DNA of 45,107 bases, filler included, from Jimgerdemannia flammicorona (Eukaryota): the NCBI GenBank assembly GCA_003990765.1. It is 2 parts of 2 records of this genome, joined end to end, with 100 filler letters (N's around TTAATTAATTAA, not from the genome) between each part and the next. Parts side by side here need not be neighbours in the genome. Positions count along the whole stretch, not along the records: positions 22,605 to 45,107 come from RBNJ01001261.1; 1 more part is not named here. One strand, given 5' to 3'. The translations under genes and the position numbers were made by a program. This document shows positions 13,523 to 42,300 of the stretch, piece after piece. Numbering within the stretch: position 1 is the first letter of the stretch; every line of letters starts with the position of its first letter. Under the pieces are notes generated by a model. That model searched no databases, was not told where the DNA came from, and worked only from the letters and a program-made list of their open reading frames with translations.

Positions 13523-13561
13523 TCAGCCCCCACTGAAGGGTAGTCTGTCTCAGACTATTCT

Positions 13562-14076: not shown

Positions 14077-14169
14077 GATGTAGGGGGGAAATATAGTTTG
14101 AGGTGATTGATGTATACTGGTGTCCTCAGGGTTCATCCATCCATGCTTCTTAAATAGATACTGGTTCCT

Positions 14170-15100: not shown

Positions 15101-15136
15101 TTAGGGTGTAGTTCCTCAGGACACCCTTCTTCTGAT

Positions 15137-16400
15137 TCATTGGGGCTGGTGGGAAAGTACATCAACATTGTTGTGAGCTTTCTCTGCTTTGTGGATGATG
15201 GTGATTTTGTAATCCTGAAGGATAAGAATCCAGTGGGCTAGGATTCTGGTAGATTCCTTGCGGTTGAATAACCATTTAAGGGCTACATGGTCTGTGATCA
15301 GGGTGAACCTTTTTCCAATGAGGTAATGCTTGAACAGGGTGACCACCCATATGACTACAAGACATTCCAGTTTGGTGCTACCATAGTTCATTTGCTGCTG
15401 ATTGGTAGCTCTGCTTGCATAAGCTATCACATGGTGCTGTTGGTCAGGTCCTTCTTGGGCTAGAACTGCTCCTAGGCCATCTTTGGAAGTATCTGTATAC
15501 AAGATGAATGGCTTCTGTAGATTGGGGCGCACAAGGATTGGTGCTGTAGTCATGCGGTTCTTGAGTTCTCTGAAGGCTTTTCCTTGTGATTCTGTCCATT
15601 TGAATGGTACTCCTTTCTTGAGAAGGATTTGGATTGGGGCAGTGATTTGGGCAAAATCTTTGATAAACCTTCTGTAGTAGGATACTAGTATCAAGAATGA
15701 TAGTGTTTCCTTTGGAGTCTTGGGTACTGGCCAATTGTTGATCTTCTCGGTTTTCTTTGGGTCTGCATGAGTTCCTTCCTTTGAAACCATGAATCCTAAG
15801 AATTCAAGTTTCTGTTTCCCAAAGTAGTATTTCTTTGCATTCAATCTCAAGTGATTCTTGCAGGTGAGCTTGAAGAATTCCTCTAGGTGGTGCAGGTGTT
15901 CTTCAAAATTTGCTGAATAGATGTTGGAATCATCCATATATACAATCAGACAGTGGTGGATCAAGGGAGCATAGACTGAATTCATCATCCTCTGGAAGGT
16001 GGGGGTGCATTGCAGAGTCCAAAGGGCATTCAGAGGTATTCAAACAGTTTTCCTAGAGCAAGGAAGGCTGTCTTTTGAATGTCCTTAGGGTCCATGGGGA
16101 TCTCATGGAATCCTGCGAAGAGGTCCATACTGCTGAAGTATCTGGCATCTTATAACTGGTCCAAAAGGTCATCAATTCTGGGTAAAGGATAAGCATCCTT
16201 TTCGGTGACTGAATTGAGTTTTCTGTAATCCACACAGAGTCTCCATCCTCCTTTCTTTGGTACAATAAGTATAGGGCTGGCCCAGGGGCTGGTAGAGGGT
16301 CGGATGACTCCATTGTCTAAGAGTTCTTGAATGTGCTCCTTTTCGAATGTTTTCAAGTGATGGGGTATTCTATAGGGTTTCTGCCGGATGGGTGTTGCAC
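15137..16400 (-). pseudogene. pol: Reverse transcriptase and RNase H of element B
   Basis: [66 protein letters not shown]. Confidence 0.97.
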
Positions 16401-16949
16401 TTCCTGTATTTATACTGTGGTGATATGATGGATTGTATGGCAGGTTTCCATAATCGGTGGTGAAGATATCTTGATATTTGTTGAGAAGTTCTACTAGTTG
16501 TTGCTATTGTTGAGGTGTCAATTCTTCTCTGATGTTGGTGGAAGGCTTCACTGTCTCCTGGGTCGCAGAGGGGCCTTTCCTTTCTTCTGGGACCTTTTGC
16601 CATTTCCTGATAGGTTTAGTTCATAAACTTCCCTATGAGTTCGATTGAGAAAAGGTACCAGATGTCCTATGATGGTTCCTTTTGGCAAGATGATAGTCTC
16701 CCAACTTTGGTTGGTTGCTTGGGAGTGTACCGGGTTCATTTTGTCAGGGAATGTGTGTCCCTCTATGTCCAGATGTGGAATGTCTTCCTTGGGTTCAAAG
16801 AAAAGGTTTCTGGGGTCAGGTAGTGCAAAGATTTTGAAGGTAGTTTGATCTCCGGGCTCCAGGATGAGATTCTTGTGCAGTCTAACTGGTTGCTGGTACA
16901 CTTGCTGGGGAACATTTCTCTTGAGGTGGTTGACTTGAAGGAGATATAC

Positions 16950-17360
16950 CTCCTTTCTGTCTGAACTTCCAAATCCTTTGGCTTGCCTTGTTCCTTCAGT
17001 TAGTTCAGAGACTTCCTGTAACTGTGGGGTCTTGACCTTCATGAAGACTGCTTGGGCAATCTTCTGTCCTCTAATGATTTGGTACCATTCTGCACTGCTA
17101 TTGTGTAGGATGACCTTGATTTCGCCTGTATATCCAGGGTCAATAGTTTCTCCTTCTACAGTTATCCCTTGTCTGGTAAGTCCAGACCTTGAGGTCAGTT
17201 GAATATAAGCTCCTTGAGGTGGCTGCATGGCTAATCTGGTTCTGACTATGAAGGTTTCTCCAGGCTTGATAGATTCATCCTCTAGGCTATAAAGATCATA
17301 TCCTACATCCTCTGGGTGGGCTTTGGTCGGGGGTTTGGCCTTTGGGTGCAGCAGGGCATA
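16950..17360 (-). CDS. dut: Trimeric dUTPase domain of the element B polyprotein, within ORF 16548-17591
   Basis: All five motifs are open: DVGYDL, SRSGL, ETIDPGYTGEIKV, GQKIAQ, RQAKGFGSSD. Confidence 0.95.
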
Positions 17361-18689
17361 CTGGGAAATATCCTTGCTGAGTTCGGGCTTTCCTAAGGCT
17401 GAAGCTCCACTGGCAGAGAGCCTCCAAGCTCTGAGGTTGAGGTGTGGCCATCTGGCTCCAGTAGAGGGGTCTCGGAGGTAATTGATTCCCCTTCTTCCTA
17501 TAGGGTCAAGGGCTTCCATGAAGTTGGTGGCATCTTCTGCCCATCCTTGGTGGGTTGCATGTCTAATGAGAGCTAGGATGTCTTCTCCCAAGTCATAGAT
17601 CTTGAGGACTCTTTTTCCTGGCTTCTTGGTCTGGCTTTTTCGGATCTGGCTTTTTCTGATCTGGCTTCAGTTGTCTCCTTTCTTCAAAGTGTGCACTGCA
17701 ACATCATAACTGAGATGAATCTTCTGATGTCTGCAGTCTCGGCAGTCAGGGTGGGTGTCTCCCATGGTTACAATATCCCATTGCTCAGAAATAGTGTTCC
17801 TGGCTGTTTATCTCCTGTTGTCTTGGGAATCGGTATCCATCTTGATCATAGGTGGGTGGAAGGGTAGACAAGGGATATATTTCTGTTCGGGTAAAGAAGC
17901 CTTGTCCTCTAAATCGACTTTGTAACCTTATAGTGACTTCTTGGAAGGTGGTAGACTGTGCAAGAGTAGTTGGGGGTTCTGGTCTCTGGGGTCTCTGTCT
18001 TTCTTGTTGGTCCAACAGATGACACTGATAGCAGTAGTCTCGGGGGGAGTGGAAGACCATTTGATGTAGACATCTTCCTAGCCAGAAAGCTTTCTCTTGG
18101 TGGGTTTCTTTCTTGGGGATAATAGTGATAGTACTGGGTCCTTCCTCTGTATTCCAGGGGTCATTGTCTTCAGGTGGTGTCCAGCAAGGGTCATCCCAGG
18201 AGATGAGTTCAGAAACTTCTCCTTCATCAGGTACTTCTTGTTCAGGAACTTCTTGGTCAGAAGTTTCTTCTTCCTCGGATGATTCTTGATCCCAAATGGC
18301 TTGTACTTCTGCAGCTTCGGTTGTAGGGGTTTCTAGAACATGCCTGCATTTCTTCTTCTTCCTTTGGCACTCTGGGCAAGCTGTGCCAGGCAATTTCCTT
18401 GTTCCTATGATCTTGGAGGAGTGCTCGGGACACTTGTGGCTCTTGAGGCATGTAGGGCATCCCCTGGCTTCTCCTGCAATAGCTCCAATGGTGATAGGGA
18501 TAGTGTTCTTGGCCCACACATTGTCTTCTAGCCTGTCATCCACCAGATTGATTCAGGGATTGAGTCTGGGATCATTTCCATCTTCAGATTCTTCTTCCTC
18601 TTCTGTAGTAGACTCCTCACTGCTGGCATATTCTTCCTGAATAGTGACCTTCTTCTTCTTCTTTGATTGCTCATAGCTGGTTACCTTAA

Positions 18690-19030
18690 CTCTGTACTTC
18701 TTGCCTTGGTAGTCGAACTTGAGTACTTGTTGGCCAATATCAATGACTGCATTCATTTCCTTCATCCAGTTGGTGCCAAGAATCATGTCATAGGTGACAG
18801 CTTCTGTGACAACAGCTTTGGGGATGGAGAACTGAATGTGTCTAAGGGAGATAGTGATATTTCGTACTTCTCCAAGAGGTTGAGTTCGGGCTCCATCTGC
18901 CACTATGATACTGAGGTTGGATGGTCCATCAATGGGCCATTGGAGGGTGTCCAGGAATCATTTGACAATGACATAGACAGCTGCTCCTGTGTCTATGAGG
19001 ATTTTTGCTTTTTGTCCTCCAATATCTCTA
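18690..19030 (-). pseudogene. pro: Aspartic protease of element B
   Basis: KILIDTGAAVYVI ... YDMILGTNWM. Confidence 0.93.
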
Positions 19031-19479
19031 TGTTGATAGGTGCTGACATGTCTTTCAGCTCCTTGAACAGAGATAGGAGCTGGTTCTTGCTGTGGGATTG
19101 GAACTCGGCCAGTGCTAGACCTTGTGGTTCTCAGCAATTTGTTTCGGACTCCCGCTGGTGTCAATTGCAAGAACTGCAGGAGAGGGACTTCCATCTTGGC
19201 CTCTTGAATCTTCTGCCATACTTCATTGTAGATATCTCTAGGCATGGTCTTTGGGGTGTACTTCTTCTTAGGCTTTGGAGCAGTAGGTTCCCATTCTTCT
19301 TGTTCCATTTCTTCATCTTCTGGTGGCAGCTCGTTTGTCTCGGGGACAAAAGGTGAGGGAGTTCGGGGAGGTGTTTCTACTTGTTCCTCCTCATGTTCTT
19401 CATCTTCTTCTTGAATAATTCTTCTGCTAATGTTCCTGGATGGTCTTCCCACAGGTCTCTTTCTTTTTTCTGCTGGGTA

Positions 19480-21085
19480 GACTGTCTTTCAGGTGGTAAC
19501 CTTGGTAGGGTACAAGTCTAGGTCACTGTAGTCTTCACTGTTGCTTGCTTCCTCAAAATCTTCAACAGGATGGGCTTCAGTCTTCTTGTACTGGGTGTCA
19601 TTCCTTCGATTTGGTGGTTCTGAGTCTCTTCGGTCACTTCTTTTGTTGTCACATTCAGTAGCATAGTGTCCAAATTGTCCACAGTGAAAACATTGGACTT
19701 GGGCTCTGTCTCAGACAGGGTACCTTCTTTCTTCTTGCTGGTAATTCCTGTTATCTCTTGGTGAGTAACCTTGGCTTCTCTGTGGTAGGTATCCTCTATT
19801 GTCTTGGTAGCTCTGATTTTCACGTATAGTGAGTTTTTCAATCTGTCCAACCAATCAGTCCAACTTGGAGCTGAGGTCTTGGATTTCACTTCTATCCTTC
19901 TTTCCTTCCTTGGCTGGCCTTCTTTCTTCAGACCTTTCTTGCCCTTGAAGGAGTCCTTGCAGGGCCTCGACCAGGATATCTTCTTTATCTTCCTTCTTAT
20001 CATGGTCACTCCATGTAGTTCCTTGCCTGACATCAAAGAATCCTTGGGCTGTATCTACTTGCTCTTCAGACCTTCTGATGCCTAGGGTGCAGACATGCTG
20101 GGCAATATTCAGGGGTATTCCATTCATGAAGGTCATTGGACCTATGATGTCTTGGTTGGTGGCATTGAACCTGGCAGAATGTATTCTCTTCTGAATTCTT
20201 GTAAAGAAGGCTCTGGGTAATTCTCCAAGGTTCATTTTCATTCCCATGATGGATTCCTGAGCCTTGTGTTAGGTTTCATTTCCTGCATACTTTTCTATGA
20301 GCCAGTAGACCATGGCCTGATATTCTAGCTCATAGGAGACTGCTGCTTGTATCTGTCTTGCTAGTTCTGAATCTGGGTTGTTTGCTGTTCAATGGAAAAT
20401 TCCTCTGGCTGGTTCTCTGAGCTGAGCTTTGTAGATGGCGATTTTTCTTTCATCTGAGAGATTCCTTAAGGCTGTGATTCCTTCGATTCCATCAAGGAAT
20501 TCTCTGGGGTCTTCCTCTGGGTATCCTGCAAAGATTGGCAATGAGGTGGCCATTTCTTCGTCACTTTCTTCTGATTCTGGTTCAAATTCGGATTCTGATT
20601 CTAATTCACTTTCTGAACTATCACTAGAGACCAGAGTGCTTGGGTATCTTGAAGATGGTGTTCCAGTCCTTGGGTGGGGTGGAATAGGCCTAGGTATTCT
20701 TGTAGGAGCTACCTCTGGTTCTGCAAGGGGTGGTGGTAGGGGTTCTATTGGTGAAATTGGTGGGACTGGTGTGGGGTGTCTGGCTGTGAAGTATTTGGCC
20801 TGTGTGATAAGGTCTTCTAGCTCTTGTGCAAGTTCTCCAAAATCTCTAGTGGGGCTGCCTGTATTGTCTGGTTGATCTGGTTGATCTGGTTGGGGATTTC
20901 GGGCTATACTGCTTCCTGCTTCTGATTGGGATCCTTCTGATGCTGGGTAGTTGACAAGTCTTGAGGTGATTACTTCTCTTTCTGTCCAAATGCTAGTGAT
21001 GACTGGTTCTCCTGTAGTAGCAGAAATTGGTGTTGTATCAAATGTATCCAGTTTGACTATGGGTTCTTGTGAGCTGAAAAGTCAT
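19480..21085 (-). pseudogene. gag: Gag of element B, with CCHC zinc knuckle
   Basis: MATSLPIFAGYPEEDPREFLDGI capsid start; knuckle QCFHCGQFGHYATEC at about 19650-19700. Start position is approximate. Confidence 0.85.
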
Positions 21086-21101
21086 GTTGATTTTGAAATC
21101 T

Positions 21102-21118
21102 TCCCAGTTGAGCCCCCA
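21102..21118 (-). promoter_or_regulatory. Primer-binding site, tRNA-Pro-like
   Basis: TGGGGGCTCAACTGGGA lies 2 nt after the LTR end and resembles the tRNA-Pro PBS TGGGGGCTCGTCCGGGA. Confidence 0.75.
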
Positions 21119-21120
21119 AA

Positions 21121-21862
21121 TGTAACATGCTGGCTCAATGGAGACAAATTACAAGGTTGGGGATTGATGTAGTTTAGCTTGAGCCCCCAGTTACTTTATC
21201 AAAAAGCAACAAAATGTTCTTGGTATTTAGCAGTATAATAGTTAAGATCTGGGATACTGTGCGAGTGGTTTCCTTTTTGAGACAGTTCTCTGGGTGTAGC
21301 GGCGATTTGTGTGTAAATGGACTTCCTTCTTGAGTCAACTGGGAATAGTACAATTTGTGTAGCATGAACGGTTTCCTTCTTGAGTAGCGATCTCTGATTT
21401 CTGCATGACGATCTGTCAATTTAACGGCTTTCCTTCTTGGGTGATGGGTGATCTTTGTGTAGTGTGGCAGATTCCTTATGTGGGACGTTCTGATAATTTG
21501 GCAGATAACTCGATTTGGCTTACTGGGAATGTAAGGTGCAGGTTCTTCTTCCAGAATAATACTAGTGGCGGGTAACTTAATAACTCGGGCTCACTGGGAA
21601 CAATGGGTAACTCGGATAACTCAGGTAACTCGGATGTCACAGATCGGCTTCAACTGGAAATACTACTCGAATGATGCGAGTTCTTCCGAATCAGGCTCTT
21701 CTGGGAATGTGAATAACTCGAAAGTGGCAGATAATGTGGATTTGGCGGGCTTCTTGAAAATGGTGGCTTAACTGGGAATTAACTCGGATGGTATAGATTC
21801 TTCCTAAATCGGCAGGCTTCTAACTGGGAAATGGGTTGGCTGCTTGGAAAGGGTCTCTTGAT
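21121..21862 (-). repeat. 5' LTR of element B (visible part)
   Basis: Aligns to 12084 to about 12824; differences are mostly C/T and G/A. Confidence 0.93.
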
Positions 21863-22504
21863 TAGTGCATCGCAACCCGAGCCGACCCATGTACATATTT
21901 AACCTGACCCAGAATTATACGTCACCCATCTTTAACCCGACCCGGAATTATATGTCACCCATCTTTAACCTGATCCGGAATAATACGTCACCCGTCTTTA
22001 ACCCGACCTGGAATAATATGTCACCCATCTTTAACCTGACCCGGAATTATATGTCACCCATCTTTAACCCGACCTGGAAACATACGTCACCCATCTTTAA
22101 CCCAACCCGGAATTATACGTAACCCATCTTTAACCCAACCCGAGAAATATACATGACCCGACCCGAGAAATATACATGACCCGACCTGAGAAATATACAT
22201 GACCCGACCCTGACCCGTATTTAACCCGACACAGACCTGTCTTTAATCCGCCTTTAAGCTATAAGGCACCAAAAAAAAAATATTACACATCTAAGATATA
22301 TATTTAGAATAAACAAACAGAAACATAATTAGGAATCAGAAATCAAAATGAAATCGGAAATAAATAGGAAGTAAATCAGGAAAATAAAGAACTTACCGGT
22401 GTGAACAGATCTTACTCTTCATCGCTATAAACCAACTGATCCTCCTCTTCATCGCTATAAACCAACTGATCCTCCTCCTTCTCATATTCTGAACCATCTT
22501 TCTC
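21863..22504. mobile_element. End of a hAT-like DNA transposon inserted in the 5' LTR of B
   Basis: Starts TAGTGCATCGC, the same TAGTGC type of terminus as the 7893 MITE; subterminal ACCCGACCCG repeats; acidic minus-strand tail EDQLVYSDEEEDQLVYSDEE* at 22412-22504. The other end is lost in the gap. Confidence 0.65.
21899..22215. repeat. 33-bp tandem repeat (about 7 copies) followed by a 22-bp repeat (about 3 copies)
   Basis: TTAACCCGACCCGGAATTATATGTCACCCATCT units, then ACCCGAGAAATATACATGACCCG-type units. Confidence 0.92.
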
Positions 22505-25798: not shown

Positions 25799-26031
25799 TG
25801 TAACAGTAACTCCAGAATGATGATATCAGCATAGGAGATAGCCTTTCTTTGCAAGCCACCAGATTGGAGCACAAGAAGATCATATGGCATATAAGATAAG
25901 AATGATAACCAACTGTGAGTCATTGTGACCATAGTATTGGTATCTTGAGAAATATAAAAGAAAGGTCAAGGAATTACAGTAGCAGCAACCAATAAGACCT
26001 ACCAATCCCAAAATAGCTCAAAGACTTTAAA

Positions 26032-26871
26032 ATGTCTGCTGCTCACCAAACCTCAAGTTCAAGAAACCACCAAGGTGCCTCAGTTGAAGAAAGGATGTTC
26101 TAAGACATCTGAAGAGCAATGAGGACCCATACAAGAAGAACACCTAGTGTCAATCTGGGTACTAGTGACTCTTATCATTATATCCTCTACTACTGCAAAA
26201 TGGAAACAAGGATCACCATTACTACCAAATGCCTCCAAATGTGGCAGGAGTATGAAATAGAAAACCTCCTCTGCTGGGAGTTCTCACAGACCAGCACTCA
26301 AGAGCTACAAGATGCCACTCCCATAGATATACATGAAATAAGAACAGCTAAGAAGATCTATCAGATCCTCAGGCATGCACTATGGTCAATCCCCAACTTG
26401 GAGTATGTTAGAGTCTCAGATTTAGACCTATCAGCCTGCCATATCAATGTACTAGATGCCAGGGTTGCTACAGAAGCCCAGTTTACTCTCACCCTCAACA
26501 ATGATGAAGTAGAAGACTTCTGGCATCCCATCCTTCAGGACAACTCAGACCAATACCTACAAGGATTGATCTCAGTATTCCAAGGCCCAAGCATCCAGGT
26601 TAGACCTCCTCAAGACCCCACATTTGTCTCCTATTTTGTGGAAGAGAACCTCATAGACTAGCGAGCCCCAGACCTCCTTGTTTCTACTACTGCTGAATGT
26701 GATGACATCATCAATAATAACATCATTCCAAGTAACATATGCGAGACACATGATATATACAAAACATACAACCTATGTGATGATGACAAATTCATGGACC
26801 TCATCTCCTTCAAAGACATCCCAACCTCTGATGAGAATAAAGCCTCTATCATCTTGAACATTCTGCTCTAA
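26032..26871 (+). pseudogene. LTR-encoded accessory protein, 5' LTR copy (about 279 codons if stops are read through)
   Basis: ATG at 26032 is in frame with ORF 26119-26661. Its early stops are sense codons in the 3' LTR copy and vice versa. TATAAAA at 25953. The TAG at 26659 is shared by both copies and may be the true end. Confidence 0.75.
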
Positions 26872-27419
26872 AGTTCTTTGGTGACACCAAATTATGCCAG
26901 CACTGGCATTCTGATGTGATACTGAATTATACCAGCATCCTGAACTTGTGTAACCATTTGTGCTAACTCTTGAACTTAGCAGTTTTTTCTGTCCTGGCAT
27001 TTTATTTTAGTTATTAGAATTTATATTTAGCATTATATCTTAACAACCATTGAATTATATTTTGTATAAATACCCCTCTTATTTCCTCTGAAATAAAGTC
27101 AGTCAAGTTCACTTACATACAATTCCTTACAAGCAATCTAAGAGATAACAAAACAGTTTAAAGATAAGAAGTTTGAGGACCATAAGACCTTGGAAAGATA
27201 CTCCAATAAGAACTTGCTTATAACAAACTTGAGTTAGTCTAAGAGATACACCTTGAAGAGAATCAGAAATATTTAAAGAACTCAGCAACCACTATATGAC
27301 TACTTGGTGTCCATTGGCTGGTGATTCAAGATAAATCCCTCACTTTCAAGCTAAACAACAAACAACTACTACAACAACTACCCTGACTACAAGAGCCACC
27401 CCTGCAACAATTCAAGATA

Positions 27420-28700
27420 AGATGGAAATACATTCCCTCACATTTTATAGATATACTACTAAAGAGTCAATCCTGATCTTCATTGAAGACTTTGAACAAA
27501 TTGCTGCTATATGAGCCCTTGGTATTGATGTACAATTGGTCCTGAAACCAGTCAGCCTCAGAGGACCTGCCAGAGACAAGTTAAATGCAGCCACTATTGC
27601 TGATAATGGTACAGCCAAACTTGTCAATATAAAGGCCTTCCTCAGAACAATATACTATACTGAAGAGATTAAGCAAGCTCTCAAGGATCAATTCAACACT
27701 ATCTTCCAGGGACTCAGTGAAGATCCCAACTTATTCTATTCCTGAATCTGCTATCAGATTGTCTTGGCTGGCTATAATGATGCCCTCAAGGAACAAATAG
27801 CAGATTCAACCTTCCTCAAAGAAGTTCATTCCGAAATTGCCCTAGCAATCTGGTCTATTCTAGCTGCACTGACCCTTGATCAGAAAGTGGTCTTTGCACA
27901 GAGATATTGGACTACCAGACACCCCGCTGAATACTCAATAGAGAAAATAACTGACATTAAGATAGAGCCATCAAAGCCAACTAATATCATATCCACTACA
28001 GTTGTAAACAGATAATCATCCCCACCTACTCCCAAGATAACCAAAGCCAACCTAGTGGAGGAACTTGCCAAGCAGTTCACTGAGATAACTGTACATCTTA
28101 GTGATGTTGTTAGAGAAGTCTGAAGTGCCAACAGGAGACCAGTACAGAGATTTGCAGCTGCTATAGAAGAATGCAACATTACATACTTCAGATATAGAGA
28201 AGAAGGTCACTATGCAAAGAATTGCATGACTGAAACAAGATACAAAACCCAATTAAGCAATACTAGTAGAACCAGAGAACAAACCAATACAGTAGTCATT
28301 GAAGAGATTAGTGATACTGATGATGAAGAATACTATGAGGAGCTCAAATTCAACCCTGCTACTGAAGGTACCAGAACCCAGTCCAAGCCCTATAACAAGA
28401 AGAGCAATAGCAAGTCAGTTGGAAGACCAAAGAAGACCCCAGCTGTTACTATCCAAAGCAAGACCCAACTCAAGGAGGTTGATCAAGACATGGGGTTAGA
28501 TGAAGCTGCCTGTCAAATCATTAAAGACACTACTCCAGTCTCAGGAGAAAGTGAAAACAACAAGGAACAGAATCTGTGCAAGACCAAGATCCACCAGTAT
28601 GATATCTATAAGGATCTCAAGAAACAGAAGATCAATGCTACTTTTGCATAGCTAGCTGAAGTCCCTGCCTTCAGACAGCAGTTGAGAGTAGGACTTACAA
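27420..28700 (+). pseudogene. gag: Gag of element C
   Basis: SLRGPARDKL, QGLSEDPNLFY; decayed knuckle TYFRYREEGHYAKNC at about 28180-28225. Confidence 0.8.
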
Positions 28701-28799
28701 CTACTGCCAAGAATCAAAAGTACAAGATTGTAGAAGCTCACAATGTACAAGAAGAATCAGAACATTCAGGTAAAGAATCTGAAGACCAGCACAAGATAT

Positions 28800-29150
28800 C
28801 AGACTATACTCTATATCAGATTGAAGATTGTATCTTTGATGCCATCATTGATACTGATGCTGGAGGATGTCTCATGAGTAAGAAGGCAATTGACTGCCTA
28901 GGCTGGGATATTGAAGAGTCCACCAAGATGGTCTATGTTACAGCAGATAGCACATGAGCTACCCCTCTTGGCAAAATCCAAGAAGTCCCCATCAAGATAG
29001 GAGGAGCTACCATCCCAGTATATGTAATTATTATAAGTGCCACCAACTATGACATCCTCATTGGTAACCAATAGCTTCACAAGACCAATGCTATTATTGA
29101 TCTCAATGCCCAGAAGATGCAGATCAACTATAGAAAGAAATATACTAGTC
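28800..29150 (+). pseudogene. pro: Aspartic protease of element C
   Basis: AIIDTDAGGCLMS ... NYDILIGN. Confidence 0.85.
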
Positions 29151-29509
29151 TCTATCAATGTCCACAAAGGAGTTCTATCAGACATAGAGAAAGGAGTTGA
29201 AGAGAACACAGAAGTCTTCATGCACTTGGTGAACAAGAATAAGAACAAGACCCCTAAGCTCACTGATGAGCAGTGGTATAACAAGATCATTGATATCTAT
29301 GCCCCTCAAGAAAGAAGCCCCCCTGGTACTAGAATGTACTGCTCTGAACATCTGAATGACTGCTGGTTCTATATCAGTGAAGTCAGAAAAATCCATCAAC
29401 AGAAATATGAGCTAGAAGCTACTGAAGCAAAAAAGAAAGCCAAAGAAGATGACCAGACCCCCAAGCTTCAAGCTGACAGTGATGATGAGGAGAAATAAGA
29501 ACCAGATAT

Positions 29510-29925
29510 CACTCTCAAGGTCAAGAAGTTTCACCCTAAAGCCAAGATCTCAGAATATAGGACTGAAGGAGCTATAGGAATAGACCTTGCCAGCATTCAA
29601 GATGCTACCCTAAAACCACAGACCACCACCCTACTTGGCACTGGAATTAGAGTAAAGCTGCCAGAGAACCATGCCAGAATTATCAAGACCAGGAGCAGTC
29701 TGGCCAAAAGTGAAATCTTAGTTGAAGGAGGAGTAATTGACCCTGATTATACTGACAAGATCTCCTCATAGTCAGGAATCATAACCCCACCACCCCATTT
29801 GACATCAAGAAGTATGATAGGATTGGTCAGATGCTGATCTACAAAATCAAGAAGTCTAAGATCACTGAAGCCATTGAACTCATCAAGACCAAGAGAGGAG
29901 AACAAGACTTCAGATCTACTGGAAG
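29510..29925 (+). pseudogene. dut: dUTPase of element C
   Basis: KFHPKAKISEYRTEGAIGIDL, IKTRSSLAK, EGGVIDPDYT; motif V remnant RGEQDFRSTG. Confidence 0.9.
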
Positions 29926-30076
29926 AGAAGCCTATACCACTAACAAGATTACTGAACTTGAGCACAAGAAATACAGAGACTAGAGCAAGCACATATATAC
30001 CATTGGAGAAAACTTTCCCCTGGAAGAACAACTTCTCAAAATCCTGCACCAGAACAAAGAAGTACTTGGTACAGAC

Positions 30077-31410
30077 TTGAGAGATATCTACAATCAAGGA
30101 TCCAAGTACTACCACAAAGTTGACACTAGTGATACCAAGCCCATCTACCAGAAAGCCAGACCTATACCACCTGCTGACAGAGAATGGCTGCAAGCAGAAC
30201 TCAAGGAAATAGAAGAAGTCAGAATAATCAAGCAAGCTATCAGTCACTGGGCTTCACCTATTGTCCTTGCTCTGAAGAAAGGAAGCAAGCCTGGAGAGTT
30301 TGCATCAAAACTCTGCATTGACTACAGGAAGCTCAATGTAATCACCAAGAAGAATAGGCAGCCCTTGCCAAATATTCAAGAAATCCTTACCACCCTTGGA
30401 AGTGAAGCCAAATACTACACTATCTTGGATCTGTTCTTAGGCTTCTATCAGATTAGTCTCACTTAAGATACCAGTGAGAAATCAGCCTTCATTATACCTG
30501 ATGCCATCTATATCTACCTGCAAATGCCATTTGGAATGTGCAATGCCCCAGCAAGTTTCCAGTGAATGATGAACAGAGTCTTCAGCAATGAGATTGAAAA
30601 ATGGTTCTTTGTCTATATTGATGATATAATCATCTTCAGCAACACTGCACAGGAACGTATCAATCACATACAGCTAGCCCTCAAGAAGCTCAAGAAGTAT
30701 GTCCTCTATATCAAGCCCAAGAAATGTAAGTTTGTAGCTCAAGAAATTGCCTACCTAGGACACCTCATCAATCAGACTGGAATCCACACAGACCCCATGA
30801 AGATTGAGGCTGTTGCAGCCTATCCAAGACTCAGATTAACCACAGAAGTCCATGCCTTCTTTGGACTGACCAGCTACTACAGAAGATTCATCAAAGAATA
30901 CTCCAACATTGCAGCACTATCTATGTATTACTGAAGAAGAAAACCAAATTTGAATGGACCAAGGAATACTAAGAAACCTTCAATGAACTCAAGACCAGGT
31001 TGTCCCAAGCACCTATCCTCAGAAGACCAGATTGGAAACTAGAATTCATCCTGCAGACAGATGTAAGTACTATAGGACTAGGAGCCATCCTAGCTCAGAA
31101 GAAAGATAGATATGAATATGTCATCTCCTATGCAAGCTGAGGTACTAGTAGAGCAGAACAGAACTATAAGTTATACAAGCTCGAATGCTTAACAGTAGTT
31201 TGGGCAGCAGACAAGTTCCACTACTACCTAGCTGGAAAATACTTCATCATTCAAAAAGACCATTCTACTCTTACCTGACTATTCTACACTCTGAACTCCA
31301 AAGGAATATATACCAGATGGATCAATAGGCTGCAAGAGTATAACTATACTCTCAAGCACTGCTCAGAAAGAACCAACACCAATGCTGATGCCCTCTCAAG
31401 GACACCCTGA
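30077..31410 (+). pseudogene. pol: Reverse transcriptase and RNase H of element C
   Basis: SHWASPIVL, LCIDYRKLN, MPFGMCNAPASF, VYIDDIIIFS, ILQTDVS. Confidence 0.95.
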
Positions 31411-31649
31411 AATACCTCCATCAAGACTATTTAATATAAATAAGGAGTTATACTATGGATTAATTGGCTACCTTGGGTAATAGAAGATACCCAATCACCT
31501 TGAACCCTGGACAATCACTATTTTCAATCAGACTTGAAAACAGTTTGAACTAGACAACACTATACTCAGAAAAGAAGGAAAGCTAGTAATACCCAAATAC
31601 AAGAAGTATCAAGTATGAAGGAAGTACACAAGTAAGGACACCTAGGAGG

Positions 31650-32922
31650 TTCCAAGCTATGGTATGTGGCATATCATCTAGACTTCCCAGCTTGGGTGGT
31701 GAAGCAGCTGACAAAGATGGCTAGAGATTGGATTTGGGCTGAGAGGAGGTCCCAGATCAGTTGGGATACCCTTGCAACTCCAGTGGTTAGGAGAGGACTA
31801 GACCTTGTGGATTTCCCTAAGAGGTTGCACTGTCTGCAAGCCTGGTGGTTGAGGAGAGCTGTTGAATTGCAGGGAGGGGGTTGGGTGCTGCTGCTGCAGA
31901 GGGTGTGGTAGATGAGATTCTCTCCTCAAGGGTCCTCAGGAGATTTGCTTGCTCTGGTGGGGCTGAAGGGAAGTTGATAGCTGTGGTTTAAGGGCTTCTG
32001 ATAGAGGGTGGTAGATAGAGCATACTGAATCAGCCTGCACTGATTGGGCAATGAGAGAGAGGTGCCTTAGGGTCCAAATATGTAGCAATGGGACAGATTG
32101 CTTCTGGAGGGTACTCTGCTTACTGAGTTTGACATTGGGGATGGAGTGGAGTATCAGCAGGGTCTTGTCCAGGATCTTTGGCCAAGTGGATGGCAGGCAG
32201 CAAGGATTGGTGAGGAGTAGGACTAGGCAGGTGTCTGGTCATAGAGTGCTGAGGTGCAGAAGTGGCTTCCTCCCAAGTTCTGAGTAGTGTGGTGGCAGAT
32301 GCTACAGAGGAACATCATGTTGAATTTCTGTGCAGAGCATCTGGTGGAAGGTGGCCAATTAGATTGTGAGGAGTGTTATGATGTGGGGCAAGTTAGGGAA
32401 TTTGTGTAGATGCCAGAACATTGGCTGGGAGAATGTGAGGTGCTGCAGGACTTTTGGATAGAAGCAGAAAATCAGCTGGGTGTGGAGTGACAGCTAGATG
32501 GTGAGTGAGGCTGCTGGGAGGATTTGAGATCTTGGCTAGTTGGGGGTGTGGGCAATAGTTGACTTACTGCAGGGTGGGTTTTAGTGGTGTGAGGGGGATT
32601 AGTTGGACATTGGCTCTTTGTCTTCAAGGAGGGGTGATAGTTGGATTTACAGAGAAGTTGTTAAGATGGAAGGAGTTGATGGAGGGTGGGTGGGTTGAAG
32701 TCTCCAGGGGGGGCAGTGTCATTGTCTGGTGGAAGGGATCTGTGAACAGAGTGGTGGGCAGGTTGCAATAGTATTAGACAAAGTGGTCTTTCATTGAGTA
32801 GGAGTGGTGGGGAGAGGCCCCCCTAGGGGGATTGGGTGAGAGATGGGCTCAATATATTTATATAAGATAGAATGGTGTATTAATAAAGGAAGGAGTCCAA
32901 GAGACTATAAAAAAAAAAAAAA
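31650..32922 (+). mobile_element. 5'-truncated L1/Tx1-like LINE inserted in the integrase of element C
   Basis: Homologous to 24061-25340; poly(A) 32909-32922; about 14-bp TSD GGACACCTAGGAGG / GAATACCTAGGAGG. Confidence 0.92.
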
Positions 32923-33918
32923 TGGAATACCTAGGAGGAACCAATACATATGACAAGGAAAGAAGAGCTATGTAGTAGTCTAAAATAGAAGAAGACCTGC
33001 ACCAATTTGTCAAAGGTGTGATAAGTACCAAAAACAGAAATAAGATCAGCAAGACCAGGTACCCAGGTCATCAAGAATTGAGCCTATCCCCTTCCACCAC
33101 ATCACAATAGATATCGTTGGGCCACTACCAGTAATACTATCAGGAAACCACTATATTATAATTATTATAGACCTCTTTACCAAATGGATAGAAGCAGGAG
33201 CATTACAAGAAGCCAATGCCCTCTCTATAGCCAACTTCCTGCACTGAGAAATCATCTGCCACTACAAGACACCAAAGCAAATCACAACAGACTATGGCAC
33301 AGAATTTGTCAATGGATTCTACAAGATAATGTATTAGAAATGCAAGATTCAGTACATCAAGACCACTGCATACCACTCTCAAGCAAATGAACAGATAGAG
33401 AGAACTAATAAGACCCTCAAGAACATCCTGGCAAAGATCTCAGAGACATATAAGAATTGGTATAACTACCTTCCAACTGCCCTCTCTGTCCTATAAGACA
33501 TATAGTCACAGAGCATACACTTTATCCCAAGAGAACTGCTCTTTAGAGAAGAAGATTCTGATGGAACCTTAGCAATAAATCTAAACCTAACTTGGAGATA
33601 GGTTGATGCAGAAATCCAGAGACTACACCAAATCAGAAAGAAGGCTGAAGATTATATCATCAAGTTACAAGTATTGATAAGAAAAAATGAAGAAAAGAAT
33701 TACAAGACTCTAAAACCCATCCAAATCATAGAAAAGGTCCTACTGTATCGAAATATAATAGAAGCCTCATGGTTGCAAAAACTGGGGCCCAAATGGAAAG
33801 GACCCTTCCACATGTAAGATATCAAGAGAACTGCCTTATGGCTTAGAAAAATCTCAGAGACCATACTGCCTACTACAGTACATAGGAACAGACTCAAGAA
33901 GTACCATGAACCTATATA
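32923..33918 (+). pseudogene. int: Integrase of element C (N-terminus at about 31560-31649)
   Basis: IDIVGPLP, ITTDYGTEF, TTAYHSQANEQIERTN, PKWKGPF. Confidence 0.92.
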
Positions 33919-34524
33919 AGAGAAGCAAAATATGATGACTGCCCATGAGGTTCTAGTCTGTGAATCATAACAGCATGTTCCATAACCAACAAGCTATCTG
34001 TCTGGACTATTCTCTAAGGGATATAGCACCAGCAACTATTCATCCATAAGACTTTTGAAGTCAGAGGAGTTTGAACTGTCAACTGATTGATCAAGATCAG
34101 AATCAGGCCCTTGCTCTATATGAAGGAAATGACTCTTCACCATTATGCCAAAATACAAAGGGAAGATACCAGCCCATAAATACCACTTTTCGACCCCTTG
34201 TCAGAGGTTATGGGATCAGCAAATTTTTCAGGACTGGACCAATGAATAAGGATGCTTGAGAAGATCCTTATTCATGAGGAAGATGTAATAGTGATCCCAG
34301 AATGATGATATTAGCACAGGAGACAACCTTTCTTTACAAGCCACCAGATTGGAGTACAAGAAGATCAGATGGCATACAAGATAAGAATGATGACCAACTG
34401 TGAGTCATTGTGACCATAGTATGGGTATCTTGAGGAATATAAAAGAAGGATCAAGGAACCATAGTAGCAGCAACCAACTAAACCCACCAATCCCAAAATA
34501 GCTCAAAGACTTACTACAAATAAA

Positions 34525-35366
34525 ATGTCTGCTGCTCACCAAATCTCAAGGTCAAGGAATCACTAAGGTGCCTCAGTTGAAGAAAGGATGTTCCAAGACA
34601 TCAGAAGAGCCATAAGGACCCATACAAGAAGAACTCCTAGTGTCAACCTGGGTACTGATAACTCTTATCATTATATTCGCTACTATTACAAAATGGAAAC
34701 AAGGATCAGTATTGCTACCAAATACCTCCAAATATGGCAGGAGTATGAAATAGGAAACCTCCTCTGCCAGAAGTTCCCACAGGCCAGCACCCAAGAGCTA
34801 CAAGATGCCACTCCTATAGATATATGTGAAATAAGGATAGCTAAGAAAATCCATCAGATCTTCAGACATGTACCATGGTTGATTCCCAACTTGGAGTATG
34901 TTAGAGTCTCAGATTTCAGAGACCTGGCAGCCCACCATATCAATGCACTAGAAGTTAGGGTAGCTACAGAAACCCAGTCTACTATCACTCTCAACAGTAA
35001 TAAAGTAGAAGAATTCTGGCTTCCATCCTCCAGAACAACCCAGACCAATTTCTGCAAGGATTGAACTCACTATTCCAAGGCCCAAGCATCTAGATTAGAC
35101 CTCTCCAAATCCACACATTTATTCCCTATTTTGTGGAAGAGAACCTCATAGACTAGAGAACCCCAGATCTCCTTGTTTCTACTACTGCCAAATGTAATGA
35201 CATCATCAGCAATGACATCATCCCATGTGATATACATGAGATGCATGATATATATGAAACATGCAATCTATGCAATGATGACAAATTCATGGACCTTATC
35301 TCCTTTGAAGACATCCTGACCTCTGATGAGGATGAAGCCCCTATGGTCTTGAACATTTTGCTCTAA
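34525..35366 (+). pseudogene. LTR-encoded accessory protein, 3' LTR copy
   Basis: MSAAHQ..EERMFQDIRRAIRTHTRR..WQEYEIGNLLC..IAKKIHQIFRH; TATAAAA at 34438; frameshift near 35020. Confidence 0.75.
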
Positions 35367-35796
35367 AGTTCTTTAGTGATACCAAATTGTGCCAGCACTG
35401 GTATTCTGATGTGACACTGAGTTATACTAACATCCTGAATCTGTGCAACTATTCATGCCAACCCTGGAACTTAGTAGTTTTTCCTGTCCTGTCATTTTAT
35501 TTTAGTTATTAGAATTTATATTTAGCTTTATATCTTAGCAATCATTGAATTATATTTGGTACAAATACCTCTCTTATTTCCTCTGAAATAAAGTCAGTCA
35601 AGTTTACTTATATATAATTTCTTATGAGCAATCTAAGAGATAACAAGATAGTTTAAAGATAAGAAGTTTGAGGACTTTAAGATCTTGTGAAGATACTCCA
35701 ATAAATACTTGCTTATAACAAACTGGAGTTAGTCTAAGAGATACATCTTGAAGAAAATCAGATATATTTGTAGGACTCAGTGACTACTATGTAACA

Positions 35797-39874: not shown

Positions 39875-40329
39875 TATAGATAAATTTGCCTGCCAAAAAA
39901 AAATATATTGTGGTGTTGGGTTTGTATCTCTAGTTGCTTCTAGCACGGCTCAATGTACCACTTGGTGAAGCACGCGATGTATAACTGAAGGCGTTGGTGA
40001 CATTCGCGGGTCGTTGGTCATGTGATCAGGTCGTTCAATATGTGCGATAATAGCGGGAGGTCGTTCGACGATGGCTCAATTGTTTAGTGGATAAGGGCGG
40101 CGGTTATACTGGCTAAGTTTCCTGGTGGCGATTAACTTGGCGGCAAACTCGGCGACAGTCTTGACTTTAAACGGTTCATGGTGCAGTAGGTCGGAAAATG
40201 GAGGTTGATGGCTCACTCATCCGTCTTGACTTGTTAACTTGAAAGGTTCCTGGCGGTCGTTTGGGTCTTTGGCAGCGGGTCGGTCTTTGGCAGTCTAGTA
40301 TCCTTTGGCTGGGTATCCTTGGGTTTCTG

Positions 40330-41340
40330 GGTCTTGAATCTCGAATGGCGGTCCGAATGGTGGTCCAAATGGCAGTCTGAATGCGCGGCGGTCGGGTAAC
40401 ATTTTCTTTCTGTGGCAAGAGAAAATTCTTTAACTCAAACTTCCGAGCAATCCATTGCTCTAGGTTGTTATCTTGTTCTCAGAATTTATCTGGTCTCTTG
40501 GAGGCAGTGTGTTTTCTCTGTAAAACTATCTGACTTGCGGGTGGTCTGTGGTCTTGAATCCTTGGCTGGGTCTCGGGTCTCGAATGGCAGTCGAATGGCG
40601 GCGGTCGGGTAACGTTTTCTTTCCGTGGCAAGAGAAAATTCTTTAACTCAAACCTCGAGCGATCGTTGCTCTAGTTATCTTGTTCTCAGAATTTATCTGG
40701 TCTCCTGGAGGCAGTGTGTTTTCTTTGTAAAACTGTCTGACTTGTGGGCGGTCCATGGTCTTGAATCCTTGGCTGGGTCTCGGGTCTCGAATGGCAGTTG
40801 AATGGCGGCGGTTGGGTAATGTTTTCTTTCCATGGCAAGAGAAAATTCTTTAACTCAAACCTCGAGTGATCATTGCTCTAGTTATCTTGTTCTCAGAATT
40901 TATCCGGTCTCTTGGAGGCAGTGTGTTTTCTGTAAAACTGTCTGACTTGCGGGTGGTCCGTGGTCTTGAATCCTTGGCTGGGTCTCGGATCTCGAATGGC
41001 AGTCGAATGGCGGCAGTCGGGAAACGTTTTCTTTCCATGGCAAGAGAAAATTCTTTAACTCAAACCTCGAGCGATCGTTGCTCTAGTTATCTTGTTCTCA
41101 GAATTTATCTGGTCTCTTGGAGGCAGTGTGTTTTCTCTGTAAAACTGTCTGACTGAGGGTGGTCCGTGGTCTTGAGTCCTTTTCGTGGCGGCAAAACTTG
41201 AAATTCAGGCGGCAAGAGAAATTCCTTAACTCAAACTTCCGAGCGATCCGTTGCTCTAGGTTGTTATCTTGTTCTCAGAATTTTCTGGTCTCTTGGAGGC
41301 AGTGGTTATTTCTCAAAACCAGTTGACTGAGGGTGGTCCT
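40330..41340. repeat. About 205-213-bp tandem repeat, about 5 copies
   Basis: GCAAGAGAAAATTC(T/C)TTAACTCAAAC recurs at 40415, 40628, 40835, 41040 and 41212. Confidence 0.95.
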
Positions 41341-42026
41341 TCAAATATCTCCATAAGACTCATTAGGTGATCTTGATGGTTGTCTTGGAGTGGGGTGGTG
41401 TGGAAACCTGGTTGAGTAGGTTTGGTTTGTTGGCTTCCTACGGCGATGCGGTTGCTACCAATAGAGTTGGCTACTTCAGATTCTATCCAGTCAGCATCTT
41501 CAGTTGAAAGGTGGGAGAGGCTGCCAGCCATTACTCCTTGCAAGTGTGCTATGGCCCAGAGAATATGGCAGAAGATTTGGTGGACACGGAGGGCTCTCTT
41601 GATTAGCTGGCTGGTGGTTAACATTTCGGCAATGAGGTCTTCCTGGTCACCTTCTTGAGTCTCATTGCAAAGGTGGTGTCCAATTTCGTAGTCATGCCAG
41701 AGGGTCATTCATTTGGTAGTGTCTTTGAGCTGTTGGGTCATTATATACCAGTAGTTGATGAAGTGTCCAAGGTCCTCAGTGTAGAAGTTCAAGTGTTCGG
41801 AAGTATCTGGGCACCAGATGGCCTTCTTGATAACTTCAAAGATCAGGGTCTTTGGGCCAGGCAAAGCGGTAGAGTGGCAGGAGGTCTGGTTGGATCGGCA
41901 AATGGGAGGTATTGTGTGGTGGGTACTTGGTTCTTTGGTGCCGATCCCTGAGGCAGAGTATGGTTCCTTAAATAACGTGGTCTTCATTTTGGCTCGGATC
42001 ATCTTGTCTTCTTTTGGGATGATCAC
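41313..42026 (-). pseudogene. LTR-encoded accessory protein of family E (two in-frame ORFs split by one TGA, probably from CGA)
   Basis: LIFEVIKKAIWCPDTSEHLNFYTEDLGHFINYWYIMTQQLKDTTK*MTLWHDYEIGHHLC..IKRALRVHQIFCHILWAIAHL..PLQDNHQDHLMSLMEIFEGP aligns with the family C LTR ORF. Confidence 0.8.
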
Positions 42027-42300
42027 CTAATGGGTCAGACTGTCTATTTGATTGTCATGCCATTATGTCATCTGATCTTAGCAGTCACCAGTACTCTGTT
42101 GTCAATTGCGTATGTCACAATATATATTTTTATACTTAATATTTAGAATAAAATTTTATATATATATATATATATTTTTTTTTTGACAAACTTCAAAAAT
42201 TGTATTTTTAAAAATATTTTGACTTAATATTTAATATAAAAATCATAATAATAATTATTTTTAAATTTGTTCTTTTTTTTTATAGACAAATTTATCTGCA

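What the first reader, a model, noticed from the sequence alone, without database searches (positions are those of the whole stretch)
25799..27302. A protein-coding gene embedded inside a Gypsy LTR (family C)
Seen: both 1.5-kb LTRs of element C hold the same reading frame (26032-26871 and 34525-35366). Most disabling stops differ between the copies, so the ancestral LTR carried an intact ORF of about 210-280 aa. It has TATAAAA about 80 bp upstream (25953, 34438) and AATAAA downstream (27092). The protein looks helical with an acidic tail, and I cannot match it to gag, pol or env. Known: LTR-borne genes exist in retroviruses (MMTV sag, HIV nef overlapping U3) but are unusual for Ty3/Gypsy. Inference: it is a trans-acting accessory factor, for example a transactivator or anti-silencing protein.
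Basis: partly seen in the sequence, partly recalled or inferred. Interest (0 to 1): 0.88.

Follow-up and report, generated by a model that had tools for sequence, protein, structure and literature searches.

The report
Conserved protein gene inside Gypsy LTRs
The long terminal repeats of this retrotransposon carry two dead copies of a real protein-coding gene from a previously undescribed family that evolution has kept intact elsewhere, an arrangement known from a few retroviruses but apparently not from Ty3/Gypsy elements.

Summary
Two 1.5-kb LTRs (25799-27301, 34284-35796; 87% identical) flank a decayed gag-PR-dUTPase-RT-RH-IN element. Both hold the same 280-codon frame, with 3 stops in the 5' copy against 10-26 in the other five frames (shuffle P=0.0002).

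It is a real gene family. Database searches found 13 related proteins, with intact forms of 271-342 aa. One metagenome contig (L001) has an intact 323-codon ORF in the same layout: TATA, ORF, second TATA, AATAAA. dN/dS of window versus L001 is about 0.15. A distant paralogue (about 30% identity) lies near the start of a second, different putative LTR in the window (41912-41331, minus strand).

The second TATA, the AATAAA and a TCAGT initiator, with fixed 36-nt spacing, also occur in ORF-less LTR families. This places the genomic RNA start near 27101 and the ORF in U3.

The protein has no Pfam, PDB or fold match. It is soluble, with a helical N-terminal part of about 210 aa and an acidic, hydrophobic-studded tail.

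Best reading: a self-contained accessory gene in U3, acting in trans. A transactivator or anti-silencing role is only inferred. No RNA data were available.

The parts
25799..27301 (+). 5' LTR of element C (1503 nt, begins TG; final CA read as C-T in this copy)
   Evidence: Direct repeat with 34284-35796, 87% identical. The left flank is TCAT.
25953..25959 (+). TATAAAA box 79 nt upstream of the ORF's ATG; putative promoter of the LTR gene, lying inside U3
   Evidence: Read. GAATATAAAAG is identical in the 3' LTR and L001 (11 of 11); the 5' LTR reads A instead of G at its first base. The 5' UTR behind it is only 62% identical with 31 gap columns. A TATTTAA lies about 55 nt upstream of the paralogue's start in element D.
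26032..26871 (+). LTR-borne ORF, 5' copy: 279 codons plus stop. Dead: stops at 26101, 26110 and 26659, and an in-frame 3-nt deletion at 26423/26424
   Evidence: It is 66-70% identical to the intact proteins P0003 and P0004. dN/dS against L001 is 0.16.
27065..27072 (+). TATAAATA, inferred core promoter of the genomic RNA
   Evidence: TGTATAAATACCCCTC is conserved in L001, and related forms occur in three ORF-less LTR sequences of the window.
27092..27097 (+). AATAAA poly(A) signal, 4 nt upstream of the inferred start site (so in U3)
   Evidence: Present in 5 of 5 aligned LTR sequences.
27099..27104 (+). TCAGTC initiator-like motif. Its A at 27101 is the inferred U3/R boundary
   Evidence: TCAGT is invariant and the block from TATA to TCAGT is gap-free in 5 of 5 sequences. 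The offset of 36 nt from the first T of the TATA box was counted by eye in C, L001 and A_10640. Similarity falls away directly after it.
27305..27317 (+). Primer-binding-site-like TGGTGTCCATTGG, 3 nt after the LTR
   Evidence: Read. A soil contig's loose end reads the same junction as ...ACTTGGTGCCCATTGGCTGG (table 7).
27302..34283 (+). Internal region of element C, decayed and carrying an unrelated ~1.2-kb repeat at 31652-32834. Order: gag with a decayed zinc knuckle (28124-28651), PR (28652-28957), dUTPase (29499-29771), RT-RNase H (29984-31407), IN (33092-33670), purine tract 34274-34283
34284..35796 (+). 3' LTR of element C; right flank TTAT
34525..35366 (+). LTR-borne ORF, 3' copy. Dead: stops at 34564, 35091 and 35154, and a 1-nt deletion at 35020/35021
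41331..41912 (-). Remnant of a distant paralogue of the same gene (ATG read as ATA, one internal stop, C-terminal half missing), near the start of the putative 5' LTR of a different Gypsy element (D)
   Evidence: tblastn gives 78% identity to P0013 (E 2e-65) and 27-32% identity to the C-type, L001-type and P0011/P0012-type proteins (E 1e-15 to 2e-22). An intact 325-aa form exists elsewhere, P0136. Sequence read.
39972..42113 (-). Putative 5' LTR of element D. It begins TGTGAC next to AT-rich flank and is followed by TGGTACATTGAGCC and then PR, dUTPase and RT on the same strand
   Evidence: There is no second copy in the window, so LTR status is inferred.
40368..41340 (.). Tandem array of ~206-nt units that begins at the codons for FEGPP and takes the place of the paralogue's 3' half

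Best explanation
The U3 part of this LTR family carries a complete accessory gene. It has its own TATA box (25953), a leader of about 45-80 nt without upstream ATG, an ATG with A at -3, and an ORF of about 271-280 codons. About 190 nt downstream lie the element's own core promoter (TATA 27065, initiator 27101) and the poly(A) signal (27092), which the gene would share.

Inferred mechanism. Each LTR (5', 3' or solo) could produce a monocistronic mRNA of about 1.1 kb. Its product is a soluble, acidic protein with a helical N-terminal part of about 210 aa and a 47-126-aa acidic, hydrophobic-studded tail. The protein would act in trans for the family. The most likely role is a nuclear regulator of the element's own expression (activator or anti-silencing factor).

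What is shown: the gene is real, it is conserved under purifying selection, it lies inside the LTR, and both window copies are dead.

What is inferred: placement in U3, a promoter of its own, and the function.
For: 1. The ORF lies wholly inside both LTRs.
2. It has 3 stops against 10-26 in the other frames; shuffle P=0.0002.
3. Searches returned 13 database relatives, grouped by me into four subfamilies, including intact forms of 271 aa (P0003), 325 aa (P0136) and 342 aa (P0012).
4. Contig L001 has an intact 323-codon ORF in the same order: TATAAAAG, ATG 65 nt later, ORF, TGTATAAATACCCCTC, AATAAA, TCAGTCAA.
5. NG86, window 5' copy against L001: dN/dS 0.16 over 275 codons and 0.148 over the first 210 (pN 0.236, pS 0.692). 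Fisher P=6e-22.
6. A paralogue at about 30% identity sits at the matching place in a second Gypsy family of the window, so the arrangement is old.
7. The module of second TATA, AATAAA and TCAGT is gap-free in 5 of 5 aligned LTR sequences, three of which lack the ORF. That marks it as the elements' common promoter and terminator and puts the ORF upstream of it, in U3.
8. Tail net charge is -9 to -25 in 9 of 9 members that have a tail, and 15-34% of tail residues are F, I, L, V, W or M. There is no conserved hydrophobic span.
Against: There is no RNA or protein evidence of any kind.

The TAG at codon 210 is shared by both LTRs, so it was already in the RNA that made this insertion. This copy therefore transposed with a tail-less ORF, and the gene is not needed in cis.

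Only one outside locus (L001) gave DNA. For the other 13 proteins the LTR context is unseen.

Element D's LTR has no second copy in the window.

Both structure models are of low confidence (mean pLDDT 49 and 51), so the 'helical domain' is only a secondary-structure statement.

The start site at 27101 and the promoter at 25953 are motif-based.

The window copies have decayed neutrally since insertion: differences by codon position are 44, 28 and 43.
Confidence: 0.6

Rival explanations
1. The ORF has no promoter of its own. It is read from the 3' LTR's U3 on a spliced subgenomic RNA that starts at the normal LTR start site, as for MMTV sag or HIV nef.
For: U3 of the 3' LTR is part of every genomic transcript, so the ORF is present on RNA without any extra promoter (established retroviral logic). 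The placement in U3 rests. The TATA at 25953 is only a motif.
Against: A TATA-like box 55-80 nt upstream of the start codon is present in C, L001 and D although the sequence around it has diverged. I identified no splice acceptor and made no systematic search for one.
Confidence: 0.15
2. Transcription of the genomic RNA starts at the first TATA (25953). The ORF then lies in a very long R region (about 1.1 kb) and is the first cistron of the full-length RNA, like the extra ORF upstream of gag in plant Ogre elements.
For: TATA at 25953 with no upstream ATG before 26032. Extra ORFs upstream of gag are known in plants (PMC7264820, passages read).
Against: The second TATA, AATAAA and TCAGT module with fixed spacing is shared with ORF-less LTR families. 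An AATAAA inside R would have to be ignored at the 5' end. From my own recall, an R of about 1.1 kb would be far longer than any known.
Confidence: 0.12
3. The ORF is a host gene, or a piece of another mobile element, that was captured once into the LTR and does nothing for the retrotransposon.
For: Gene transduction by LTR elements is known (PMC7264820 abstract, seen). The protein has no recognisable retroelement domain.
Against: No longer or host-like relative was found. Among 1.84 billion representatives only 5 true relatives appeared, all 342 aa or shorter and, where a contig length was shown, on contigs of 0.6-2.4 kb. The ORF is retained at about 30% identity across two LTR families with dN/dS about 0.15, which a passive passenger would not show.
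Confidence: 0.05
4. The open frame is a chance or compositional effect in an A-rich LTR.
For: None beyond the fact that both window copies are interrupted.
Against: Shuffle P=0.0002. Intact homologues exist. dN/dS is 0.15.
Confidence: 0.01

Closest known systems
MMTV sag, the superantigen ORF in U3 of the betaretroviral LTR (recalled, not from a call)
   Same: A long LTR (over 1 kb) whose U3 holds a complete sense ORF of about 300 codons ending upstream of the LTR's TATA box. The gene is therefore duplicated with every insertion.
   Different: Sag is a type II membrane glycoprotein. This protein has no conserved hydrophobic span and no Pfam match at E<=0.1 in the Pfam-A library searched. The host element here is Ty3/Gypsy, not a retrovirus. 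Expression here is unknown.
HIV/SIV nef and foamy-virus bel/bet, which overlap U3 (recalled)
   Same: Accessory, trans-acting proteins whose coding sequence runs into U3 of the 3' LTR.
   Different: Those ORFs begin in the internal region and only overlap the LTR; here the whole gene, with a TATA box of its own, is inside it. No sequence similarity was seen.
Additional ORFs of plant LTR retrotransposons: Ogre ORF upstream of gag, env-like ORFs, and the antisense ORFs of Grande and Retand (PMC7264820, abstract and passages)
   Same: Family-wide conserved extra ORFs of unknown function. The authors suggest they may act like retroviral accessory proteins.
   Different: All are described as lying in the internal region (upstream of gag, or between pol and the 3' LTR). 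The phrases 'in the LTR', 'within the LTR' and 'inside the LTR' do not occur in that review.
Gypsy elements with dUTPase between PR and RT: bdelloid rotifer Juno/Vesta/TelKA (PMC5408684, passages) and some basidiomycete elements (PMC2864245, passages)
   Same: PR-dUTPase-RT order, seen here in four elements of the window. The rotifer elements also carry varied extra ORFs.
   Different: The rotifer LTRs are 159-551 bp and their extra ORF3 lies between pol and the 3' LTR. The LTRs here are 1.5-2.1 kb and hold the ORF.

Membership tests
Ty3/Gypsy (Metaviridae) LTR retrotransposon | Two LTRs in direct orientation with TG..CA ends and a short target duplication | tested here: met
   25799-27301 and 34284-35796, 87% identical. 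Flanks are TCAT and TTAT, one transition apart. The terminal CA of the 5' copy reads CT.
Ty3/Gypsy (Metaviridae) LTR retrotransposon | pol order PR-RT-RNase H-IN, with integrase after RT | tested here: met
   PR weak (E 0.053). dUTPase E 1.7e-14 and RVT_1 E 1.7e-12. RT-RNase H at 30554-31407 and IN at 33092-33670 by tblastn with element B's proteins.
Ty3/Gypsy (Metaviridae) LTR retrotransposon | gag with a CCHC zinc knuckle | tested here: inconclusive
   Only a decayed remnant is visible by eye: YFRYREEGHYAKNC in ORF 28124-28651. There is no Pfam zf-CCHC hit.
U3-encoded retroviral accessory gene of the MMTV sag type | Complete sense ORF inside U3 of the LTR | tested here: inconclusive
   The ORF is inside the LTR (shown). 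Its place in U3 rests on the conserved TATA/AATAAA/TCAGT module at 27065-27104, not on mapped RNA ends.
U3-encoded retroviral accessory gene of the MMTV sag type | Type II membrane glycoprotein homologous to Sag | tested here: not met
   No Pfam family at E<=0.1. The maximum 19-residue hydropathy is 1.1 or less in 9 of 10 members, with one at 1.78.
Internal additional ORFs of LTR retrotransposons (Ogre ORF1, env-like, antisense aORFs) | ORF lies in the internal region, between the LTRs | tested here: not met
   Both copies lie wholly within the repeated LTR sequence.
Acidic transcriptional activators (viral transactivator type) | Acidic, hydrophobic-studded activation region | tested here: met
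   Tail net charge -9 to -25, 19-36% D+E and 15-34% FILVWM in 9 of 9 members that have a tail. This is a compositional resemblance only.
Acidic transcriptional activators (viral transactivator type) | A DNA- or factor-binding domain of known fold; nuclear localisation; reporter activation | tested here: inconclusive
   Models have pLDDT 49 and 51. The best structural Z is 4.0 among 48,161 chains. Localisation and activation cannot be tested with these tools.

The most novel reading that the evidence does not exclude
In this Gypsy clade every LTR is a free-standing protein-coding gene, with promoter, ORF and poly(A) signal all inside U3/R. Solo LTRs left behind by recombination would then keep supplying a family-specific nuclear factor that activates the family's promoters or counteracts their silencing. 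This would be a retrotransposon 'public good' encoded in the repeat itself, and a new protein family with no known fold.
Probability: 0.25. Interest if true: 0.88.

Novelty: new variant of a known kind. Interest (0 to 1): 0.72.

Why it matters
LTRs are normally treated as non-coding control regions and are masked before gene calling. A conserved gene inside them would be missed systematically.

If it is expressed, three things follow. Thousands of LTRs, solo ones included, could be coding units. Ty3/Gypsy elements would have arrived independently at the retroviral device of placing an accessory gene in U3. And a new protein family would become available for studying how retrotransposons manage their own expression or their host's silencing.

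The claim can be tested directly with RNA end mapping and a reporter assay using the natural intact homologues.

Tried and rejected
- Pfam on the ORF, both read through with X at the stops and as the 182-aa intact piece: 0 families at E<=0.1.
- Profile against PDB sequences: 0 hits at E<=1.
- ESM Atlas: best feature score 0.83, best TM 0.33, no lead.
- AlphaFold2 on the whole protein (10 rows) and on the N-terminal 216 aa (11 rows): mean pLDDT 49.4 and 51.0.
No fold can be named and none is excluded.
- Related loci. The first metagenome scan found none; the second found 1 locus, L001. Viral contigs gave none of 62 pattern matches and prokaryote genome contigs none of 15.
- Sequencing runs: no RNA holder was listed. 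The four runs laid (three soil-metagenome DNA runs and one run of unrecorded kind, all as short contigs) carry many diverged pieces of the LTR. All contigs covering 26110 read A, so the TGA is private to this copy.
- Earlier findings of the scan: nothing in 3 look-ups.
- Literature: five searches and passages of three papers gave no report of a gene inside a Ty3/Gypsy LTR. Subscription journals are not covered.
- Host. The nearest named relatives of element B's RT-RNase H are Rhizophagus and Dentiscutata at 41-47% identity, but a sponge and a butterfly follow at 42-43%, so the host stays unidentified.
- A RIP-like context was considered: C/T differences are followed by A in 47 of 91 cases. I judged this too weak in an A-rich sequence.
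- Short motifs in the tail (DLI-x-F, LNF near the C-terminus, D-[IV]-[IV] runs) resemble clathrin-box, export-signal or SUMO-interaction motifs from my recall. None fits its consensus across all members, so none is claimed.

Full report
**1. What is there**

The window holds four nested or adjacent Gypsy elements:
- A on the plus strand, about 7245-10900;
- B on the minus strand, about 12084-21551;
- C on the plus strand, 25799-35796;
- D on the minus strand, 36050-42113, which ends at C's right-hand end.

Element C is the one in the finding. Its LTRs are 25799-27301 and 34284-35796. They differ at 192 of 1501 aligned positions (87% identity), with 160 transitions and 32 transversions. The flanks read TCAT and TTAT, a purine tract precedes the 3' LTR, and a TGG-initiated primer-binding-like site follows the 5' LTR.

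Between the LTRs lie a gag remnant, PR, a dUTPase domain (PF00692, E 1.7e-14), RT (RVT_1, E 1.7e-12), RNase H and IN, in the Gypsy order. All are broken, and an unrelated ~1.2-kb repeat is inserted at 31652-32834.

**2.

Both LTRs contain the same 280-codon frame.
- The 5' copy has stops at codons 24, 27 and 210 and an in-frame 3-nt deletion.
- The 3' copy has stops at codons 14, 189 and 210 and a 1-nt deletion in codon 165.
- Only the TAG at codon 210 is shared.

The frame has 3 stops against 10, 24, 16, 14 and 26 in the other five frames. Only 0.02% of 5000 shuffles have 3 or fewer. Differences between the two copies fall 44, 28 and 43 times on codon positions 1, 2 and 3, so since insertion the copies have decayed more or less neutrally.

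**3. It is a real gene family**

A word-indexed search of 5.8 billion proteins with the X-read-through found 5 relatives among 280 candidates. One is an intact 271-aa protein covering 100% of the query at 66% identity. A profile search of 1.84 billion representatives found 6 hits at E<=0.001. Five are true relatives of 138-342 aa. The sixth is an ankyrin-repeat protein at E 1.5e-4 that I discount. A second profile search added four more, including an intact 325-aa form.

That makes 13 cluster representatives. All 12 contig lengths shown (for 11 of the 13 representatives and one cluster member) are 0.6-2.4 kb, and none carries an informative name. None is longer than 342 aa, so no fused or host form was seen.

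At codon 210 every homologue reads W where both window copies read TAG.

By eye I group the family into four subfamilies:
- C-type: P0003-7 and P0010;
- L001-type: P0015 and P0137;
- D-type: P0013, P0136, P0138 and P0139;
- P0011/P0012-type.

**4. Selection and conserved architecture**

Only one outside locus with DNA could be fetched, the 1345-nt metagenome contig L001. In order it reads:
- GAATATAAAAG at base 1;
- ATG at 69;
- an uninterrupted 323-codon ORF;
- TGTATAAATACCCCTC;
- AATAAA;
- TCAGTCAA.

This is the order found in the window's LTR.

Nei-Gojobori counts for the window's 5' copy against L001 give dN/dS 0.16 over 275 codons. Over the first 210 codons the value is 0.148, with pN 0.236, pS 0.692 (saturated) and Fisher P=6e-22. 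Because the window copy is dead, this overstates the true ratio.

Nucleotide identity between the two is 66% in the first 215 codons, 53% in the tail and 49% in the 184 nt after the ORF. It rises again to 73% over the second TATA block.

**5. A second LTR family with the same gene**

tblastn of the family against the window finds, besides the two C copies, a third locus at 41912-41331 on the minus strand. It is 78% identical to P0013 and 27-32% identical to the other subfamilies' proteins.

It lies about 200 nt inside the outer end of element D, which begins TGTGAC next to AT-rich flank. A TATTTAA sits about 55 nt upstream of its former start codon, now ATA. Its 3' half is replaced by an array of ~206-nt tandem units. 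After about 2.1 kb come TGGTACATTGAGCC and then D's PR, dUTPase and RT.

D has no second LTR in the window, so its LTR status is inferred by analogy with C. The geometry matches C: element end, 140-155 nt, TATA, 55-80 nt, ATG.

Elements A and B belong to the same dUTPase-bearing group but show no copy of the ORF.

**6. U3 or R?**

I aligned the 3' part of C's LTR, L001 and three ORF-less LTR sequences of the window (10640-, 44770-, and 13400- on the minus strand). All five share one block: TAGTTAGCCA..., a TATA box (TA[TC]AAAT), AATAAA and TCAGT. There are no gaps from the TATA to the TCAGT in any of the five, and similarity collapses right after TCAGT.

By my count in C, L001 and A_10640, the A of TCAGT lies 36 nt after the first T of the TATA box. 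I read this block as the common core promoter, with the initiator at 27101 and the poly(A) signal just upstream of the start site. The signal would then appear only at the 3' end of the RNA, and R would be short.

From recall, this is the layout of retroviruses with a short R. It places the ORF (26032-26871) in U3. This is an inference from motifs; no RNA ends are available.

**7. The protein**

No Pfam, PDB-sequence, Atlas or structural match was obtained, and both AlphaFold models are unreliable (pLDDT 49 and 51).

What can be said:
- There is no signal peptide-like start and no conserved hydrophobic span.
- Helices are predicted through the first ~190 residues.
- The core is strongly conserved: W-x-EYEI, HQIFRH-x-P, WNPILQDNPDQFLQGL, F-x-GP-x-I, PYF.
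- After the conserved I-x-W-R comes a tail of 47-126 aa with net charge -9 to -25 and many bulky hydrophobic residues, in 9 of 9 members that have a tail.
- The tail has short recurring motifs: DLI-x-F, and LNF near the C-terminus.

From recall, that composition is what acidic activation regions look like.

**8. Most likely mechanism and its rivals**

I commit to a self-contained accessory gene in U3, transcribed from the TATA at 25953 and ending at the LTR's own poly(A) site, whose product acts in trans.

The shared TAG shows that this very copy transposed with a truncated gene. Whatever the protein does can therefore be supplied by other copies.

The rivals are listed with odds in the rival explanations: spliced expression from the 3' LTR as for sag or nef; a very long R with the ORF as leader cistron; a passive captured gene; and chance. 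Chance is excluded.

**9. Comparison with what is known, and novelty**

The closest analogue is the sag ORF in U3 of the MMTV LTR (recalled). The layout is the same, but the protein is unrelated (no membrane span, no Pfam hit) and the element class differs.

A review of extra ORFs in plant LTR retrotransposons places them upstream of gag or between pol and the 3' LTR, and never uses the phrases 'in', 'within' or 'inside the LTR' (PMC7264820, abstract and passages). Bdelloid rotifer elements share the PR-dUTPase-RT order and carry extra ORFs, but downstream of pol, and their LTRs are 159-551 bp (PMC5408684, passages).

Five full-text searches gave no report of a gene inside a Ty3/Gypsy LTR. The library lacks most subscription journals, and I read no supplements.

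I rate it a new variant of a known kind: an LTR-borne accessory gene in a new element class, with a new protein family.

**10. Limits**

- The host is unidentified. The nearest named RT relatives are Glomeromycotina at 41-47% identity, by a narrow margin.
- Related LTR pieces occur in all four runs laid, three of them soil-metagenome DNA runs.
- No genome, RNA or protein data were available.
- Only one external DNA locus supports the conserved architecture.

Noticed in passing
window 7245-7841 (+), 16548-17666 (-), 29499-29771 (+), 37572-37964 (-): All four Gypsy elements of the window appear to carry a dUTPase domain between PR and RT. Pfam confirmed it for B and C. A is supported by tblastn with B's PR-dUTPase segment, and D only by my reading of the translated ORF. 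The papers read report this arrangement only for bdelloid rotifers and some basidiomycetes.
   Followed up: partly
window 10748-10828 (+), 44876-44956 (+), 13207-13287 (-), 27060-27108 (+); L001 1210-1260: One core module (TATA box, AATAAA, TCAGT, gap-free between them) is shared by several otherwise unalignable LTR sequences, both with and without the ORF.
   Followed up: yes
window 40368-41340: About four and a half tandem units of ~206 nt (77-89% alike) inside element D's putative LTR. The array starts exactly at the codons for FEGPP of the paralogous ORF and replaces its 3' half.
   Followed up: partly
window 21861-22173: Tandem array of a 33-nt unit (7 overlapping 115-nt copies reported) just outside element B's upper repeat.
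   Followed up: no
window 31652-32834 (+) and 43095-44271 (inverted): A ~1.2-kb repeat with strong G-over-C skew is inserted between RNase H and IN of element C and recurs in inverted orientation near the window's end (76-82% alike). Its 91-aa ORF (31636-31911) has no Pfam hit.
   Followed up: no
window 25799-27301 vs 34284-35796: Decay of the LTR pair is dominated by transitions (160 of 192). C/T differences are followed by A in 47 of 91 cases, and G/A differences are preceded by T in 31 of 69. CpG is almost absent from this LTR, whereas element D's LTR keeps many CpGs.
   Followed up: partly
window 1914-3242 (-): The longest open frame of the window (442 aa), in a G+C-rich stretch (about 50%), has no Pfam family. 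A weak RVT_1 fragment lies next to it at 821-1342 (-).
   Followed up: no
window 7993-8225: Near-perfect hairpin: two 111-nt arms, 86% complementary, 11 nt apart, inside element A.
   Followed up: no
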